This document shows, piece after piece, positions 10,025-16,468 of a DNA stretch of 23,210 bases; positions within the stretch are counted from its first letter, which is position 1, and the number at the start of each line of letters is the position of its first letter. A model generated the notes under the pieces. The model made no database searches and was not told where the DNA came from. It saw only the letters and a list, made by a program, of their open reading frames with translations. This stretch comes from a virus (Duplodnaviria; Heunggongvirae; Uroviricota; Caudoviricetes). The stretch lies in the IMG/VR virus record IMGVR_UViG_2861069343_000008. The stretch is one strand, 5' to 3'. Made by a program: the position numbers and the translations under genes.

Positions 10025-10477
10025 TTAGTGACGCGGGTCTGTTATTATGCGAGAAGGGTTTCCGTATAAAACAAGGACCTTACTTCCTTGAGTAAATAAC
10101 GGATCTTTGCCTTGAACAATGGTCATTAAATTCCCATTCTCAGTTTCGACAACATATTCCATGCCTGTTTGTTTTGTTGCTGAAGATTCGATTGCTGCCC
10201 CGGCAATACCACCAATGACTGCACCACCAACGGCACCAACGATATTAGAACGAACTCCCCCACCAAGCGCAGAACCAGCGGTTGCCCCCACGGCAGCCCC
10301 AGCAGTCCCGCCTAACGCGGAAGTCCCACTGATATCAACCCCCCTGGCACTAATAACTGTACCAGCGATAGTTCGATTAACCATGCCCACAGAGCCAACA
10401 GAATAACTATTTGGCGATATATTTTGTGCGCATCCAACCAACACTAAGAGTGGAGCAATTACGAATAATCGCTTCAT
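10025..10477 (-). CDS. Glycine-zipper lipoprotein (Pcp/SlyB-like)
   Basis: 150 aa. Lipoprotein signal MKRLFVIAPLLVLVGC, then a Gly/Ala-rich glycine-zipper segment (GTSALGGTAGAAVGATAGSALGGGV…GAVGGAVIGGIAGAAI). Start overlaps the stop of the upstream lipoprotein gene. Confidence 0.6.
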   Translation of the reverse strand: MKRLFVIAPLLVLVGCAQNISPNSYSVGSVGMVNRTIAGTVISARGVDISGTSALGGTAGAAVGATAGSALGGGVRSNIVGAVGGAVIGGIAGAAIESSATKQTGMEYVVETENGNLMTIVQGKDPLFTQGSKVLVLYGNPSRIITDPRH

Positions 10478-11034
10478 TTAGCTACCCTAACAGGAAACAT
10501 TGGACGAGAAAGATCAACACTTTCTAATGCTTGCAAGAACTGCGTTATGTTGTTTTGCACCGCGCGATTAACAGATTCGCGTGCTCGAACAATACCGTAG
10601 AATGCGTAACTGGCTGGAACAGTACCGGTAGACTCAATATCCTGCGTATATATAATATCACCATTCGCACGGTTGATTATTTCATACCTTGCAATTGCTT
10701 TAGTTGTCATTGAAACACCAAAAGCAGGAACGTCAAGAGCCAACACTTTAACATTTAAGCTAACCGTATTTGGTGAACTATCACGAAAAATAGTCATTCG
10801 GTCGAGTGCTTCCTGCAAAGATTCACGCCAAATTGGAGTTATAGCCTCCATACCAGCAGTGATATCCCCTTTCTGCTCATCTGGACGAGCAAGTGATACC
10901 GTTAATGACTTAATTTCAGCATCTATTTTTTTCTGGCTAACTCCCACGTTAGGTGTTGAAAAATTCAATGGTGGCACACTAGCGCAACCTGTTAAAGAAC
11001 CAATAATCATGGCTAATAATATTATCTTCTTCAT
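10474..11034 (-). CDS. Lipoprotein of unknown function
   Basis: 186 aa. Signal peptide with lipobox (MKKIILLAMIIGSLTGC). No family recognised by eye. Translationally coupled to the glycine-zipper lipoprotein. Confidence 0.6.
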   Translation of the reverse strand: MKKIILLAMIIGSLTGCASVPPLNFSTPNVGVSQKKIDAEIKSLTVSLARPDEQKGDITAGMEAITPIWRESLQEALDRMTIFRDSSPNTVSLNVKVLALDVPAFGVSMTTKAIARYEIINRANGDIIYTQDIESTGTVPASYAFYGIVRARESVNRAVQNNITQFLQALESVDLSRPMFPVRVAK

Positions 11035-11275
11035 AAATTTACCTTATTGTTATAACCAAAGGAATTATAAAGTAAAAAAGTTCACTATCACTAGCCATTA
11101 ACGACATCAATTTCAGAGAAACATGGTACTCATTTCCACAAATTTGACACAAGTCATTTTCATCTACATATTCCATCATACTTGATGCATATGTTATTGA
11201 AGCCTCTATCCTATCCGTTCATAATAGCAATAGTTACCCGGGTGATAGTACCTCTATGATTACTCGTCTTTCTGA

Positions 11276-11482
11276 TTGATTGGATTAAATATGCGCGCCA
11301 AAATTTATCAACTTTCGTTATGGATATTTATTTCGTTTCTAGCGATCTATGCCTTTATTATCTATAAAGGTTCTTATATTGGAGTAGCATTGCATCAAAT
11401 TGCTTGGATCATCATTATTGCCTCTGGCTTGATTGCTAGGCTAACTAAACCAAAGCAAAAACCAATTTCGTCCAATAATTAG
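11276..11482 (+). CDS. Small hydrophobic protein (two predicted TM helices), hypothetical
   Basis: 68-aa ORF in an AT-rich intergenic region on the opposite strand to neighbouring genes. Hydrophobic stretches LSLWIFISFLAIYAFIIY and IAWIIIIASGLIARL. Start codon uncertain. Confidence 0.3.
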   Translation: MIGLNMRAKIYQLSLWIFISFLAIYAFIIYKGSYIGVALHQIAWIIIIASGLIARLTKPKQKPISSNN

Positions 11483-11518
11483 ACATGTATTAAAAAATGA
11501 TATTTTTATGTACATAGT

Positions 11519-11887: not shown

Positions 11888-12337
11888 CTAAGTGCCTTTA
11901 CCTGATTTGGGTAAACTTTTCTTACCTGATTCAGGTAAATTTACCTCTTTCAGGTAAACTTTATTTTTCTTACCTGATTCGGGTAATGTTGACCATTCAC
12001 TGACCACATTATTAATGCCTATATTCCGCCCGCTCTGAATAAAAATCCCACGCTTTACCAGAACACTTTTTGCAGCAGAACACTTGTGCGGCAATATCCC
12101 GGTCAACTCGGAAAGTTGCTCGTTGCTCACCCAATCCAGTTTTTTATTAAAGCCATATGTTTTGCGCATGACAGCCAGGAAGACCAGAAGCTGGTGCTGT
12201 GTTAATCCGGCCAGCATTACAGCTTCCAGCAACTCATTTGCAATGCGCGTATAACCATCATCGAGATCTGCCACGCGCGGCTCCTTTTGTGCCGCATCCG
12301 GCACTGGAAAATTGAATATCTCAGCAGTGTTTGCCAT
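11888..12337 (-). CDS. O: Replication initiator O, N-terminal iteron-binding domain only (gene truncated just after the iterons)
   Basis: MANTAEIFNFPVPDAAQKEPRVADLDDGYTRIANELLEA…LLVFLAVMRKTYGFNKK… aligns with the lambda O N-terminal domain. GGGAGG Shine-Dalgarno 7 nt upstream. The ORF ends 10 nt past the last iteron and only 76 bp from ren. No O C-terminal domain and no P gene follow. Confidence 0.7.
   Translation of the reverse strand: MANTAEIFNFPVPDAAQKEPRVADLDDGYTRIANELLEAVMLAGLTQHQLLVFLAVMRKTYGFNKKLDWVSNEQLSELTGILPHKCSAAKSVLVKRGIFIQSGRNIGINNVVSEWSTLPESGKKNKVYLKEVNLPESGKKSLPKSGKGT
11898..11986. repeat. Origin iterons: four 17-bp near-palindromic direct repeats inside the O reading frame
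   Basis: TTACCTGATTTGGGTAA (11898-11914), TTACCTGATTCAGGTAA (11922-11938, perfect palindrome), TTACCTCTTTCAGGTAA (11941-11957) and TTACCTGATTCGGGTAA (11970-11986). They encode the LPESGKK repeats at the end of the ORF. Confidence 0.75.
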
Positions 12338-12423
12338 AATTCCTCCCGCAATGAGTGTGTTACGATTTGCACCTGAAAGTCGGTTCTGTTCCAGCAGACC
12401 GGCTTTCGCCATTTCTGAACCTG

Positions 12424-12963
12424 TCATATCGCCCCCAGCATGGTAGTAACCATCGCCATCAATGGACCAGCCAGATCTGGGTCCACACGAAACATCGACA
12501 CAATACCTTCACTAATTTCCTTCAGTTTCTGGTGGCGTGGTGCGTTGAGAATGACAGCCTGTTTTGCCTCACTGAGTTCCTTTTCCATTTCAGCCAACCT
12601 AGCCATGAAGCTATCCTGCTCAACCAGGTAACCGCGATATTCCAGCGGTAGTACCGCCAGAATTGCCGGGGTCAGTTCACGCACGTTATTTCGGTATTTT
12701 TCAGAATCGAATTTGTTATCGAGGAAGCGGAACAGCTTCTGGCGTGCACGGCTGACATCATCAGGGAAATCGATGGTGCCGCCGCCCTGCTCCCGATACT
12801 CATTCACAATGAGTGTGGCAACGACATCCTGATTATCTTCAGCCGACCAAGCGCGGACGGCATCACGGATTTTTTCGTGGCCTGGCACCTGTTTTGTTTG
12901 AGAACGATTTATCACCGCAGTCGGGCTAAATCCGCTAGTCTGTTGGTATGTAAGTGGTTGCAT
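12424..12963 (-). CDS. YdaT-like protein (occupies the cII position downstream of cro)
   Basis: 179-aa ORF directly downstream of the cro-like gene and upstream of O. Family assignment is a tentative recollection of Rac YdaT-type proteins. Confidence 0.45.
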   Translation of the reverse strand: MQPLTYQQTSGFSPTAVINRSQTKQVPGHEKIRDAVRAWSAEDNQDVVATLIVNEYREQGGGTIDFPDDVSRARQKLFRFLDNKFDSEKYRNNVRELTPAILAVLPLEYRGYLVEQDSFMARLAEMEKELSEAKQAVILNAPRHQKLKEISEGIVSMFRVDPDLAGPLMAMVTTMLGAI

Positions 12964-13032: not shown

Positions 13033-13263
13033 TTAAGCTGCGTTCTTTTCGGTGTGTGGAAACAACTTCGGAAGATCCGGGCGAATCTGGTATGCCTTCA
13101 CTACTCCACCAGTAGCCGTAACAATGCTGCCGACATGTTCAGGGGATACCTTTGCTTTGTTGTGAAGCCACTTATAGACGGCCTGCTGTGAAACTTCGCA
13201 AGCAGCGCCCAGTTTCTTTTGTGAACCAACGATATTGATCGCTGTTTTGATAGCTGGGTTCAT
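13033..13263 (-). CDS. cro: Cro-like HTH repressor (YdaS/Cro family)
   Basis: 76 aa with an HTH (QKKLGAACEVSQQAVYKWLHNK), divergent from cI across an operator-rich spacer. GGAGG Shine-Dalgarno upstream. Confidence 0.7.
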   Translation of the reverse strand: MNPAIKTAINIVGSQKKLGAACEVSQQAVYKWLHNKAKVSPEHVGSIVTATGGVVKAYQIRPDLPKLFPHTEKNAA

Positions 13264-13290: not shown

Positions 13291-13362
13291 AGATTAAAAC
13301 TATGGTTGTTTTTAGTCAACAACCATTTTCGTTTGATGGAATAAAACCTTGGTTGTACATTT
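13291..13362. promoter_or_regulatory. OR-like region: divergent pR / pRM with three operator repeats
   Basis: Three related sites: AAAACTATGGTTGTTTT (13297-13313), AACAACCATTTT (about 13318-13331) and AAAACCTTGGTTGTACA (13345-13361). For cro: -35 TTGACT and -10-like TAATCT on the minus strand, with an operator in the spacer. For cI: a -10-like TACATT ending about 7 nt before the ATG. Confidence 0.55.
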
Positions 13363-13367
13363 GGACT

Positions 13368-14057
13368 ATGAAAACAACACTCTCAGAAAGACTTAAAGAA
13401 GCCAGATTAGCGCGAGGCCTTACACAAAAGGCGCTTGGGGATTTGGTCGGGGTTAGCCAAGCTGCTATTCAGAAAATCGAAACAGGGAAAGCTAATCAAA
13501 CAACTAAAATCGTGGAGATCGCGAACGCTTTGGGTGTGCGCGCAGAATGGTTATCTTCTGGCGTTGGAAATATGTCAGACAGTACAGTGCAACCAATACA
13601 ATCAACTGTCAGCCATTCCAAATACTTCAAGATTGACGTTCTTGATATAGAAGTCAGTGCTGGGCCGGGAGTCATCAACCGTGAGTTTGTAGAAGTTCTA
13701 CGCTCGGTTGAGTACTCGTTTGACGATGCTCGTCACATGTTCGATGGTAGGAAGGCGGAAAATATCCGCATCATTAACGTGCGTGGTGACAGCATGTCAG
13801 GAACGATCGAACCAGGTGATCTGCTGTTCGTTGATATCACAGTTAAATCTTTCGACGGTGATGGTATCTATGCGTTTCTGTACGACGACACAGCCCATGT
13901 AAAGCGCCTGCAAATGATGAAGGATAAGCTGCTGGTCATCTCTGATAACAAAAGCTACTCACCGTGGGACCCGATCGAGAAAGACGAGATGAACCGGGTG
14001 TTCATCTTCGGTAAGGTTATTGGGAGCATGCCGCAGACATATAGGAAGCATGGTTAA
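13368..14057 (+). CDS. cI: CI-type prophage repressor (HTH-XRE N-domain plus S24 LexA-like autopeptidase C-domain)
   Basis: MKTTLSERLKEARLARGLTQKALGDLVGVSQAAIQKIETGK… HTH. Ala-Gly cleavage site (VSAGPG), Ser nucleophile in RGDSMSG and Lys in HVKRL. The track ORF starts at 13302 inside the operator, so I prefer 13368. Confidence 0.85.
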   Translation: MKTTLSERLKEARLARGLTQKALGDLVGVSQAAIQKIETGKANQTTKIVEIANALGVRAEWLSSGVGNMSDSTVQPIQSTVSHSKYFKIDVLDIEVSAGPGVINREFVEVLRSVEYSFDDARHMFDGRKAENIRIINVRGDSMSGTIEPGDLLFVDITVKSFDGDGIYAFLYDDTAHVKRLQMMKDKLLVISDNKSYSPWDPIEKDEMNRVFIFGKVIGSMPQTYRKHG

Positions 14058-14179
14058 AGTGAGGCTAAAAAACAGTTACAGCAATAGGCCTGTTGTTTTT
14101 CTTTAAACACGCAGTGTTAAACCGCTCTTTGAGATGCGGAGTAATGAGATGGAAGACTTGAATCACATAAGGGTTAGTG

Positions 14180-14929
14180 ATGGAGTGCGTAGCGAGCAGC
14201 AATAGTGCAATACCTAATGTCGTTGAAGTAATACGTCGCATCAATGAAGGTTCCACTCAGCCATTTCTTTGCAAATGTGATGATGGGCAGTTGTATGTTT
14301 TGAAGTCAAAACCATCAATGCCCCCGAAAAATCTCTTAGCTGAGTTCATTTCGGCGTGTTTGGCTAATGATATCGGCCTTCCTTTACCTGACTTTAAAAT
14401 CGTATTTGTGCCAGAGGAACTTATAGAGTACTCACCTGATCTGCAGCAACAAATTTGTACAGGATATGCCTTTGCTTCATTGTTCATTGACGGTGCAATA
14501 GCGTTAACGTTTACGCAGTCAAGAAACGAAACGATCATCCCAGTCGAACAGCAAAAATTAATCTATGTTTTTGATAAATGGATATTAAATGCAGACAGAA
14601 CGCTTACTGACAAAGGTGGAAACGTTAACATCCTTTATGACATCAGTAACGATAAGTATTATCTGATTGACCATAATCTCTCATTTGATCAGAATGCTGG
14701 ACCTGAAGATTTTTCTGTGCACGTGTACGGCCCTGGTAACCGCAAATGGCAATATGATTTAGTGGATCGCGTAGAGTACCGCCAGAGGGTCGTTAACAGT
14801 TTACACAAGCTTCCTGCTATCCTTGACGAAATTCCAGAAGAGTGGATAGTAGATGAGGAGTTTTTACCTTTTGTCTGCACTACGCTAGACAAAGGTGATT
14901 GTGATGAATTTTGGAGCGCAATAGAATGA
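14180..14929 (+). CDS. Putative kinase-fold protein (HipA / PI3-4-kinase-like motifs) in the rexA position; function unknown
   Basis: About 249 aa, first gene downstream of cI on the same strand. AAGGG Shine-Dalgarno 7 nt upstream. By-eye motifs: VLKSKP (possible ATP-binding Lys), FDKWILNADRTLTDKGGNVNIL (catalytic-loop-like) and YLIDHNLSF (DFG-like). Lower GC than flanking phage genes. Confidence 0.55.
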   Translation: MECVASSNSAIPNVVEVIRRINEGSTQPFLCKCDDGQLYVLKSKPSMPPKNLLAEFISACLANDIGLPLPDFKIVFVPEELIEYSPDLQQQICTGYAFASLFIDGAIALTFTQSRNETIIPVEQQKLIYVFDKWILNADRTLTDKGGNVNILYDISNDKYYLIDHNLSFDQNAGPEDFSVHVYGPGNRKWQYDLVDRVEYRQRVVNSLHKLPAILDEIPEEWIVDEEFLPFVCTTLDKGDCDEFWSAIE

Positions 14930-15753
14930 CAACTCCATGCCTATATAGCATCGTTCGCTATGCGCCTTATGCGGAGACTGAAGAATTCGCAAACATAGGC
15001 GTACTTCTGTGCGCGCCAAAAGAAAATTACTTTGATTTCCAGCTCACAAAGCGAAATGACTCTCGTGTAAAGAATTTTTTCCATGATGATTGTATTTTCC
15101 CTGTAGCAAAAGACTCAATACAAAGAGAACTACAGTTCGCAAAAATGCATGCGACCCAGATTGTTGGACATCAACAACTTGCACAATTCTTCAGATATTT
15201 TACAAACAAAAAAGAATCAATTTTTCAGTTCAGTTCTACGAGAGTGATTCTCAGCGAAAACCCAAAAGAAGAGCTGGCCCGCATTTACAATAAATATGTA
15301 AACCACTCTGACTACACAAAAGAGCGCCGTGAAGATGTTCTAGCCAGAGAGCTAAAACGAAGTATCGATAGAATAGATGGATTGAAGAACGTCTTCAAAC
15401 AAGCAACCATTGATGGGTATTTCGCAAAGTTCTCAATGCCATTGGTCGCCAAGAAGCATGACAGGATCCAATGTGCCATCAAACCTCTGGCATTCACTCA
15501 AGCTGAACCAGGAAAAATGATGGAGCATAGTGATACTTGGGTGATGAGAATAACTCGAGCAGCAGAAGAAAACCTGCTTTCACTTGATGACATTTTATTC
15601 ACAATTGAAACTCCTGAATCACCAAACTCAGGCCAAAGCAAAGTTATTGACATCATAAAGAGAACTATGGATGCTAAGAAAATAAATCATATACCTGCAT
15701 CCAACCACAAAGAAACTATTGATTTTGCAAAAAAAATACTTCCCCAAGTTTAA
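14926..15753 (+). CDS. DUF3037-like protein in the rexB position; function unknown
   Basis: 275 aa. The start ATG overlaps the upstream stop (ATGA), with GGAG 9 nt upstream. The N-terminus (LYSIVRYAPYAETEEFANIGVLL) matches the DUF3037 signature as I recall it. Followed by a strong terminator. Confidence 0.55.
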   Translation: MTTPCLYSIVRYAPYAETEEFANIGVLLCAPKENYFDFQLTKRNDSRVKNFFHDDCIFPVAKDSIQRELQFAKMHATQIVGHQQLAQFFRYFTNKKESIFQFSSTRVILSENPKEELARIYNKYVNHSDYTKERREDVLARELKRSIDRIDGLKNVFKQATIDGYFAKFSMPLVAKKHDRIQCAIKPLAFTQAEPGKMMEHSDTWVMRITRAAEENLLSLDDILFTIETPESPNSGQSKVIDIIKRTMDAKKINHIPASNHKETIDFAKKILPQV

Positions 15754-15787
15754 AATTTATTTTTGTATGTGATATTCCTTATTAATA

Positions 15788-15815
15788 ACCCGGCCACCGT
15801 GCCGGGTTTTCTTTT
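15788..15815 (+). terminator. Rho-independent terminator ending the cI-distal operon
   Basis: ACCCGGC-CACCGT-GCCGGGT hairpin followed by TTTTCTTTTG, 35 bp after the DUF3037-like stop. Confidence 0.65.
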
Positions 15816-15926
15816 GCCTCCCCTCATCACACAAACCGCTCAAAAAACCACCATAACCTCGCTTCAGTTATCGCTATGCGATTCAAGTCACAAAATAAAT
15901 CCATCCTAAATACAACCAGTTATATC

Positions 15927-15985
15927 TAAAACAACCAATAAAACAACTTTTGTTGTTGACGGTAAAACAACTATAGTTTTAAATA
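15927..15985 (+). promoter_or_regulatory. OL / pL-like region: three operator repeats overlapping a rightward promoter
   Basis: Repeats AAAACAACCAAT, AAAACAACTTTTGTTGTT and AAAACAACTATAGTTTT share the OR core. -35 TTGACG (15956-15961), 17-nt spacer containing an operator, -10 TTAAAT (15979-15984). Same architecture as the cro promoter. Confidence 0.5.
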
Positions 15986-16177
15986 GGTTCATCGCAACAA
16001 CACAACGATACGGCAACCACCTGATTCACCGTTGCGATGACCGCTTAGATCCGCAGTTTGAATTTCAGCAGGCTTCGGGGAGTGCGAGGGGTGAAACGGA
16101 CGCGTGAACGTCGGTGTGACCAGCTGAAATCAACTCAACATTTCATACCTTAGTCGCTTCAACGAGGCGGCTTAGTT

Positions 16178-16468
16178 ATGACAACCGGCGGCCATCCACC
16201 GCCTGAATACGCGCAGAAGTCTCTATATGTTCAGCAGCCCAGCTTACGGGCAGGAGTTTTTATGGTTCATCAACATTACGGAACGCAGACCGTTAATCGC
16301 GGCGCGGTCATGCCAGGAATGCTGGTCAAACACAAAGATGGTACCTGGACTGCATCAGCTAATTTACGCGGACGGCTTTATCTGCATCGCGGCATCGAGC
16401 GCACTTATACCCGTGATTTGCTCGTGGAAGTTTTTCTCGACGGACGCGGTAACGGCCTGAATCACTAA
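16178..16468 (+). CDS. Hypothetical protein immediately upstream of gam (kil position)
   Basis: 96-aa ORF with GAGG about 10 nt upstream. Not recognisably lambda N, cIII or Kil. Its stop lies in the sequence where lambda would encode the N-terminal extension of full-length Gam. Confidence 0.45.

What the first reader, a model, noticed from the sequence alone, without database searches (positions are those of the whole stretch)
14058..15815. Uncharacterised two-gene operon (kinase-fold protein plus DUF3037-like partner) in the rexAB slot downstream of cI
Lambda carries the RexA/RexB exclusion system between cI and OL, co-transcribed with the repressor in the lysogen. Here that slot holds two different genes (14180-14929 and 14926-15753). 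They are translationally coupled by an ATGA overlap, are more AT-rich than the flanking phage genes, and end at a strong terminator just before OL/pL. Gene 1 has motifs that look like a HipA/PI3-4-kinase-fold active site (Lys in VLKSKP, catalytic-loop-like NADRTLTDKGGN, DFG-like IDHN). Gene 2 opens with the DUF3037 signature as I remember it. HipA-like kinases arrest growth by phosphorylating translation factors. A lysogen-expressed kinase with a tightly coupled partner is therefore a plausible abortive-infection, superinfection-exclusion or toxin-antitoxin-like module. I do not recognise this pair as a characterised defence system.
Basis: partly seen in the sequence, partly recalled or inferred. 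Interest (0 to 1): 0.85.

Follow-up and report, generated by a model that had tools for sequence, protein, structure and literature searches.

The report
HipAD kinase phage-defence cassette, already known

Summary
Two overlapping genes (14180-14929 and 14926-15753) lie between the cI repressor and a terminator in front of OL/pL. Gene 1 is a HipA_2-family kinase (Pfam E 9.7e-77) and gene 2 is a DUF3037 protein (E 7.6e-24).

The pair is not uncharacterised. Both proteins are 100% identical to DS-6A (WP_000389051.1) and DS-6B (WP_000210934.1) of the DefensePredictor study (Science 2026), since renamed HipAD. That paper credits an independent discovery to Brenes & Laub 2025.

Published data for these exact proteins show about a 10^5-fold drop in phage Bas1 plating.

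PADLOC lists the pair as candidate PDC-M66. GenBank phage PhiR5_1 annotates it as "HipA toxin / HipD antitoxin". It occurs at >=99% identity in about 5% of complete E. coli genomes.

My additions are small:
- Structure search confirms the atypical kinase fold.
- HipD's C-terminal half has a degenerate restriction-endonuclease-like fold.
- The cassette boundaries are exact, and the terminator belongs to the phage backbone.
- The same slot holds the pair in Proteus and Klebsiella phages.

The kinase substrate, the trigger and an abortive-infection outcome were not established in anything I could read.

The parts
13033..13263 (-). cro-like repressor gene, divergent from cI
   Evidence: Pfam YdaS_toxin E 4.1e-17 and P22_Cro E 8e-5. 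Annotated as Cro in PhiR5_1.
13294..13337 (.). OR operator-like repeats in the cro/cI divergent promoter region
   Evidence: Inverted and direct matches to 15938-15982, up to 95% complementary over 19 nt (I2/I3/I12).
13302..14057 (+). cI-type repressor (HTH_3 plus Peptidase_S24). The true start is probably the ATG at 13368.
   Evidence: Pfam Peptidase_S24 E 1.5e-18 and HTH_3 E 6.5e-13. PGAP and the sister phages start the gene at the position equal to 13368. The longer ORF overlaps the operator repeats.
14054..15782 (+). Exchangeable cargo cassette: leader, hipA and hipD
   Evidence: Homology to sister phages PhiR34_1, PhiR47_2 and PhiR26_1 stops at 14053-14057 and resumes at 15783. In those phages the slot is empty (118 bp), holds GevT/GevA, or holds a lipoprotein gene.
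14058..14179 (+). Cassette 5' leader between cI and hipA. No terminator and no good sigma-70 site.
   Evidence: No stable RNA structure (z = +1.4). No promoter-like site reaches 9 of 12. An AAGGG Shine-Dalgarno-like motif lies 6 nt before the ATG. No palindrome is shared with the leaders of homologous cassettes.
14180..14929 (+). hipA (DS-6A, WP_000389051.1): HipA_2-family atypical Ser/Thr kinase, the toxin/effector
14926..15753 (+). hipD (DS-6B, WP_000210934.1): N-terminal DUF3037 domain plus C-terminal degenerate PD-(D/E)XK-like domain, the putative antitoxin/regulator
15787..15816 (+). Intrinsic terminator that ends the immunity transcript. It belongs to the phage backbone.
   Evidence: 8-bp stem with 6 G-C pairs, 6-nt loop and a T-run. 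dG -14.2 kcal/mol, z = -3.73. It lies inside the sequence shared with the sister phages, from 15783 onward.
15938..15982 (.). OL operator-like repeats and probable pL region
   Evidence: Two 16-nt direct repeats 24 nt apart (D2), and matches to the OR repeats (I2, I3, I12). Followed by kil, gam, bet and exo on the + strand.

Best explanation
This is the HipAD (DS-6) anti-phage system. It is carried as an exchangeable cargo cassette in the slot between the cI repressor and OL/pL of a lambdoid prophage, the position that rexAB occupies in lambda.

Shown:
- The two proteins are residue-for-residue the published DS-6A and DS-6B.
- DS-6 on a low-copy plasmid cuts plating of phage Bas1 by about 10^4 to 10^5.
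- Mutating the conserved Asp139 of the kinase removes that protection.
- In a homologous pair next to Retron-Sda1, deleting the kinase abolishes defence and deleting the DUF3037 gene is toxic.

Inferred:
- HipA is a small atypical Ser/Thr kinase with a PI3/4-kinase/HipA-like fold. HipD binds it and keeps it inactive.
- Infection by a sensitive phage frees or activates the kinase. The kinase then phosphorylates an essential target, by analogy with HipA and HipT most likely a component of translation. Growth and phage production stop, which would be abortive infection.
- In the lysogen the cassette is probably read through from cI, because no terminator lies between them, and transcription stops at the backbone terminator.
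For: Identity: both ORFs equal DS-6A and DS-6B exactly (using the sequences printed in Table S8 of PMC13092281).

Published phenotype: on Bas1 the empty vector gave 3e6 pfu/ml, wild type gave 20 (-log EOP 5.18) and D139A gave 4e5 (0.88). The screen row gave 3.9 logs. The paper states that the system is defensive, that it was renamed HipAD, that AlphaFold3 predicts HipA-HipD contact (ipTM 0.76-0.79) and HipD-DNA contact (0.67), and it hypothesises a toxin-antitoxin/abortive-infection mode.

Homologous system: in PMC12548924, deletion of HipA loses defence and deletion of DUF3037 is toxic.

Annotation: 'HipA toxin' and 'HipD antitoxin' in the 99.9% identical PhiR5_1 record.

My tests:
- Family matches.
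- The pair is conserved with the same order and overlap from Enterobacterales to Sphingomonas.
- The same repressor-adjacent slot is used in Proteus prophages and a Klebsiella phage.
- No terminator lies in the cI-hipA spacer, and a strong one follows hipD.
Against: I could not read the primary HipAD paper (Brenes & Laub 2025), so anything it shows about target, trigger or phage range is missing here.

In what I read, the kinase substrate, the trigger, a physical HipA-HipD complex and an abortive-infection outcome are hypotheses and not results.

Toxicity on removing the partner was shown for a homologue, not for this pair.

The protein is not a canonical HipA at the sequence level, so transferring the aminoacyl-tRNA-synthetase target from HipA or HipT is only an analogy.

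Expression from pRM in a lysogen is untested. The published clone used a 'predicted native promoter region', yet I find no good sigma-70 site in the leader.
Confidence: 0.85

Rival explanations
1. Direct, non-abortive immunity. On infection HipA phosphorylates a phage protein (or a host factor the phage needs) and blocks the phage without killing or arresting the cell. HipD would act as a specificity or sensor subunit rather than an antitoxin.
For: Kinase activity is required for defence, but no substrate is reported in what I read. The carrier phage PhiR5_1 is deposited as a complete phage genome with E. coli C named as host. This suggests the system does not abort every lambdoid lytic cycle, although I have no experimental detail on how that phage was isolated.
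Against: Deleting the DUF3037 partner in a homologous system is toxic to uninfected cells, so the kinase has a host target. The depositors annotate the pair as toxin and antitoxin.
Confidence: 0.2
2. HipD is the effector. Its C-terminal restriction-endonuclease-like domain cuts phage DNA, and HipA only regulates it by phosphorylation.
Against: The canonical acidic positions are not conserved. The residue after invariant P172 is L or F in all 46 sequences, and the position two before invariant K186 is Ala in 41 of 46. Only E136 and K186 remain of the usual motif. Loss of the partner is toxic rather than harmless in the homologous system.
Confidence: 0.05
3. The pair is mainly an addiction or stabilisation module for the prophage, or a lysogenic-conversion gene pair, and phage defence is incidental.
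For: It has a toxin-antitoxin-like architecture. It persists at >=99% identity in about 5% of complete E. coli genomes, including this prophage, which has lost part of O and most of P.
Against: A 10^4 to 10^5-fold, kinase-dependent loss of plating is a strong defence phenotype. The pair sits in known defence hotspots: the rexAB slot of lambdoid phages and a P4-like satellite. In sister phages the same slot holds another toxin-antitoxin pair.
Confidence: 0.05

Closest known systems
HipAD, also called DS-6 (DeWeirdt et al., DefensePredictor, Science 2026, PMC13092281; that paper credits Brenes & Laub, Cell Host Microbe 2025, with independent discovery)
   Same: Both proteins are 100% identical. 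Same gene order and overlap.
   Different: Nothing at the protein level. Here the module is seen in its native prophage context, downstream of cI, in a prophage that carries an O-P deletion.
PADLOC candidate system PDC-M66 (A and B)
   Same: Both proteins hit the two models, at E 6e-15 and 3.8e-16. The literature equates HipA-like plus DUF3037 with PDC-M66.
   Different: The scores are moderate and the A hit covers only residues 12-170, so the window's pair is a divergent branch relative to the PADLOC seed.
HipA-like/DUF3037 pair next to Retron-Sda1 (PMC12548924)
   Same: Same two domains. It works as a standalone defence, needs the kinase, and is toxic when the partner is deleted.
   Different: Different host lineage and target phage (Bas51). 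It sits beside a retron RT/ncRNA that is not needed for defence.
Canonical HipBA and HipBST toxin-antitoxin kinases
   Different: No HipA_C or N-terminal HipA domains are detected, and the protein is 249 aa, which by my recollection is much shorter than canonical HipA (about 440 aa). No sequence-level match to any solved HipA, even with a profile. The partner lies downstream, has no HTH and is unrelated to HipB or HipS. The substrate is unknown.
Lambda RexAB
   Same: Same genomic slot between cI and OL, ending at the immunity terminator. RexAB's lysogen-expressed exclusion role comes from established knowledge of lambda.
   Different: No Pfam match other than HipA_2 and DUF3037, and no membrane protein is evident. 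The biochemistry is different: a kinase rather than an ion channel.
CtkA (H. pylori) and type II PI4-kinases
   Different: Only 15% identity. Unrelated biology and no partner protein of this kind.

Membership tests
HipAD / DS-6 defence system | Kinase subunit is DS-6A (HipA_2 family) | tested here: met
   249 of 249 residues identical to WP_000389051.1. Pfam HipA_2 E 9.7e-77.
HipAD / DS-6 defence system | Partner is DS-6B (DUF3037 plus a DUF1829-like C-terminal domain) | tested here: met
HipAD / DS-6 defence system | Two adjacent co-oriented genes, kinase first, with overlapping stop and start codons | tested here: met
   ATGA at 14926-14929. The same arrangement occurs in distant homologues.
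HipAD / DS-6 defence system | Catalytic Asp139 present | tested here: met
   D139 lies in NADRTLTDKGGN and is invariant in 39 homologues.
HipAD / DS-6 defence system | Confers kinase-dependent phage resistance | not testable with these tools
   Published for the identical proteins: Bas1 -log EOP 5.18 for wild type against 0.88 for D139A. Not re-tested here.
PADLOC PDC-M66 | Both component HMMs match neighbouring genes | tested here: met
   PDC-M66A E 6e-15 and PDC-M66B E 3.8e-16.
Canonical HipBA type II toxin-antitoxin | HipA_C kinase domain with HipA N-terminal domains | tested here: not met
   Only HipA_2 matches in Pfam at E <= 1. No NCBIfam HipA model matches. No PDB HipA is found by sequence or by profile.
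Canonical HipBA type II toxin-antitoxin | Upstream HTH antitoxin HipB | tested here: not met
   The partner lies downstream and has no HTH match. The 122-nt leader has no ORF on the + strand.
Canonical HipBA type II toxin-antitoxin | HipA/PI3-4-kinase-like fold | tested here: met
Canonical HipBA type II toxin-antitoxin | Phosphorylates an aminoacyl-tRNA synthetase (GltX or TrpS) | not testable with these tools
   No substrate is reported in the papers I could read.
Lambda RexAB exclusion system | RexA and RexB homologues | tested here: not met
   Pfam gives only HipA_2 and DUF3037. PADLOC gives only PDC-M66 and a weak PtuA hit.
Lambda RexAB exclusion system | Located between cI and OL, ending at the immunity terminator | tested here: met
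PD-(D/E)XK nucleases (HipD C-terminal domain) | Conserved acidic metal-binding residues (D ... D/E-x-K) | tested here: not met
   P172 is followed by L or F in all 46 sequences. The motif reads A-I-K186 rather than E/D-x-K. Only E136 and K186 are invariant.

The most novel reading that the evidence does not exclude
HipD may be more than an antitoxin. Its DUF3037 domain, which has no solved analogue, together with its catalytically degenerate restriction-endonuclease-like domain, could be the infection sensor. It would recognise phage DNA or a phage protein and release a HipA_2 kinase whose substrate differs from the aminoacyl-tRNA synthetases hit by canonical HipA and HipT. Because the cassette sits in the cI transcript of an inducible phage, activation could not depend simply on antitoxin decay after transcription shut-off, or the carrier phage would abort its own induction.
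Probability: 0.3. Interest if true: 0.45.

Novelty: already known. Interest (0 to 1): 0.12.

Why it matters
As a discovery it does not matter. The system is named, cloned, mutated and catalogued.

It does have some value as context. This window shows HipAD in its native setting, as one of several interchangeable cargoes between cI and the immunity terminator of lambdoid prophages. Sister phages carry GevT/GevA, a lipoprotein gene or nothing in the same place. The pair occupies the same slot in Proteus and Klebsiella phages and also rides on a P4-like satellite.

In the papers I could read, the open questions are the kinase substrate, the trigger, the roles of the two HipD domains, and how the carrier phage escapes its own system.

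Tried and rejected
- Sequence and profile searches of both proteins against all PDB chains found nothing meaningful. "HipA-like" therefore rests on the Pfam family and on fold comparison.
- NCBIfam has no model for either protein.
- Foldseek of the HipD model against the PDB gave no significant hit (best E 0.038).
- I looked for a promoter in the 122-nt leader and found only an 8-of-12 match.
- I looked for an autoregulatory palindrome shared by the leaders of six homologous cassettes and found none. The leaders are unrelated.
- I tried to read Brenes & Laub 2025 by PubMed id and by DOI, but it is not held. Searches for 'HipD', 'HipAD' and the PhiR phage names found no further paper.
- The active-nuclease reading of HipD was rejected as the main model because the acidic catalytic positions are not conserved.
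- I tested whether the N-less pL leader holds a structured RNA. The fold z-score is -1.1 and no Rfam family matches.

Full report
**1.
The + strand carries two ORFs, 14180-14929 (249 aa, with an in-frame GTG at 14177) and 14926-15753 (275 aa). They overlap in ATGA at 14926-14929.

Upstream is a cI-type repressor (HTH_3 plus Peptidase_S24), with a divergent cro-like gene. Downstream is an intrinsic terminator at 15787-15808 followed by a T-run. It has an 8-bp stem with 6 G-C pairs, dG -14.2 kcal/mol and z = -3.7 against shuffles.

Operator-like repeats at 13294-13337 recur at 15938-15982, up to 95% complementary over 19 nt. So the two genes sit between cI and OL/pL, where lambda has rexAB.

The module has 40.0% GC, against 45.4% for cI and 47.8% for the right flank. 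That is a real but modest AT bias.

**2. The recalled domain assignments are correct.**
Gene 1 matches Pfam HipA_2 (PF20613) end to end at E 9.7e-77. Gene 2 matches DUF3037 (PF11236) over residues 7-125 at E 7.6e-24. Both belong to PHROG families of unknown function, and NCBIfam has no model for either.

In an alignment of 39 homologues, K42, N137, D139, R140, G146, G147, N148, N150, D164, H165 and N166 are invariant.

**3. The pair is already a named and tested defence system.**
Both proteins hit the PADLOC candidate PDC-M66A/B (E 6e-15 and 3.8e-16).

A 3.2-kb stretch around the module is 99.9% identical to Escherichia phage PhiR5_1 (PV340545.1). The depositors of that record label the genes 'HipA toxin' and 'HipD antitoxin'.

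The DefensePredictor paper (Science 2026, PMC13092281) describes DS-6 as a HipA-family kinase plus a DUF3037/DUF1829 protein. It reports that DS-6 protects against phage and that a catalytic mutant loses protection. It also states that the system was found independently by Brenes & Laub (Cell Host Microbe 2025) and renamed HipAD.

The supplementary tables print the two protein sequences. A direct comparison shows that the window's proteins are identical to them at every residue, 249/249 and 275/275.

The plating table gives these values for Bas1:

| Construct | pfu/ml | -log EOP |
|---|---|---|
| Empty vector | 3e6 | - |
| DS-6 wild type | 20 | 5.18 |
| DS-6 D139A | 4e5 | 0.88 |

The screen row gave 3.9 logs. 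[quoted passage not shown]

A second paper (PLoS Biol 2025, PMC12548924) studied a homologous HipA-like/DUF3037 pair beside Retron-Sda1. Defence against Bas51 needed the kinase and did not need the retron. Deleting the DUF3037 gene was toxic.

**4. How common it is.**
The 1,758-bp finding region occurs at >=99% identity in 306 of 5,426 complete E. coli genomes. Coverage is full in 284 of them, and every copy is chromosomal. PGAP names the genes 'HipA family kinase' and 'DUF3037 domain-containing protein'.

**5. What I tested independently: the kinase.**
Neither the single sequence nor a 39-member profile finds any solved structure by sequence, canonical HipA included. Membership in the HipA world therefore had to be tested by fold.

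- Fam20 and CotH kinases

The kinase fold is confirmed. The protein is nonetheless a short, stand-alone catalytic domain and not a canonical HipA. No HipA_C or N-terminal HipA domains are detected.

**6. What I tested independently: HipD.**
The model is confident per domain (pLDDT 91.5). The pTM of 0.56 and a low-confidence stretch at 128-130 indicate two domains on a flexible linker.

The catalytic signature is degenerate, however. Invariant P172 is followed by L or F in all 46 sequences, not by D. The strand motif reads A-I-K186-P rather than E/D-x-K. Only E136 and K186 survive from the usual site. I therefore read this domain as a binding module and not an active nuclease. That is an inference.

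The DUF3037 domain has no solved analogue that I could find.

**7. Anatomy of the slot.**
Pairwise alignment with three sister phages that share the same cI and cro shows that homology ends at 14053-14057, the cI stop codon. It resumes at 15783, four bases before the terminator stem. The cassette is thus about 1.73 kb. It brings its own 122-nt leader, and the terminator belongs to the phage backbone.

The same slot varies between sister phages:

| Phage | Slot content |
|---|---|
| PhiR34_1 | Empty (118 bp) |
| PhiR47_2 | GevT/GevA toxin-antitoxin pair |
| PhiR26_1 | Putative lipoprotein gene |

The leader has no stable structure (z = +1.4) and no terminator. It also has no sigma-70-like site better than 8 of 12. 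Read-through from cI is therefore plausible but unproven.

**8. Conservation of the pair and its contexts.**
The order HipA_2 then DUF3037, with a 4-nt overlap, is kept in several distant lineages:
- Pseudomonas (36% identity to HipD), among ordinary chromosomal genes.
- Sphingomonas (29%), in an integrase-bearing island.
- Yersinia (55%), in a P4-like satellite with Phage_ASH, a D5-type primase and DinI.
- Proteus mirabilis prophages (48%), with the layout cro-like gene, S24 repressor, HipA_2, DUF3037, N-peptide gene. The gap after the repressor is only 40 nt.
- Klebsiella phage Kp4864-1, where an S24 repressor lies directly upstream of the pair.

The repressor-adjacent placement has therefore arisen or spread across unrelated immunity regions.

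**9. Mechanism.**
Shown, in the literature and for these exact proteins: kinase-dependent defence.

Shown for a homologue: the kinase is required and loss of the partner is toxic.

Inferred: HipD binds and silences HipA, infection relieves this, and phosphorylation of an essential target arrests the cell. The substrate, the trigger and the abortive outcome are hypotheses in the papers I could read. I could not obtain the primary HipAD paper.

PhiR5_1 is deposited as a complete phage genome with E. coli C as host. This suggests the system does not abort every lambdoid lytic cycle, its carrier's included. That argues against activation by simple antitoxin decay once cI-operon transcription stops. 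This too is inference.

**10. Verdict.**
The functional interpretation is essentially right, and the claim that the pair is uncharacterised is wrong. The feature is already known as HipAD / DS-6 / PDC-M66, and interest is low. The remaining questions concern mechanism and need experiments.

Noticed in passing
window 11889-11890 (junction); O' ORF 11888-12427: The window's prophage is 100% identical on both sides to the prophage of E. coli WCHEC020031 at the ybhC/att-lambda site, except for a clean 1,097-bp deletion. The deletion removes the 3' part of replication gene O and most of P. The remaining ORF keeps only the Phage_rep_O N-terminal domain. The prophage looks replication-defective but keeps cI and HipAD.
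   Followed up: yes
window 13302-13370: The longest cI ORF starts at 13302 and overlaps the operator-like repeats at 13294-13337. PGAP and two sister-phage records start cI at the ATG equal to 13368 (229 aa), which is the more likely start.
   Followed up: partly
window 15990-16262: No N-like ORF lies between the probable pL and kil, whereas the Proteus relatives have an N-peptide gene there. The roughly 190-nt leader is conserved among sister phages, and a 60-nt piece (about 16141-16203) is shared with HK225 and phi80. Its predicted fold is not better than shuffles (z = -1.1) and no Rfam family matches. Whether it holds a put-like antitermination RNA is open.
   Followed up: partly
sister phages L002 (PhiR47_2), L003 (PhiR26_1), L004 (PhiR34_1), same slot as window 14054-15782: The cI-to-terminator slot is a cargo hotspot with exact boundaries. 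It holds the GevT/GevA toxin-antitoxin pair, a putative lipoprotein gene, or nothing (118 bp) in phages that share the same cI and cro.
   Followed up: yes
window 10025-11500: A very AT-rich patch (GC 0.32-0.36) between the nin region and ren. It holds a lipoprotein-like ORF (10474-11034, signal peptide with a Cys, no Pfam match), a glycine-zipper 2TM ORF (10025-10477) and a small hydrophobic ORF (11276-11482). It looks like another cargo insertion of unknown role.
   Followed up: partly
window 5053-7811: Non-phage-like cargo lies between the Q antiterminator and the lysis genes: an AraC-type HTH gene (5053-5640; frameshifted in the WCHEC020031 annotation), a YbgA-family gene (DUF1722 plus 2-thiouracil desulfurase, 6135-7094) and a lipocalin gene (7287-7811).
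   Followed up: no
window 19474-20076 (- strand): A 200-aa ORF on the opposite strand, between the TraR-like gene and excisionase, with no Pfam match. It may be another cargo gene.
   Followed up: no
L012 7571-8698 and L013 7607-8698 (Proteus mirabilis prophages): In the Proteus prophages that carry HipA_2/DUF3037 after the repressor, the pL operon also holds a RelA_SpoT-domain gene just after N. A third relative (L011) has a Clp-protease-family gene there instead. This may be a second variable defence slot.
   Followed up: no
L014-L016 5264-6819 (Yersinia enterocolitica): The HipA_2/DUF3037 pair also rides on a P4-like satellite (Phage_ASH, D5-type primase, DinI) next to an IS110 transposase. 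So it moves between phage and satellite hotspots.
   Followed up: partly
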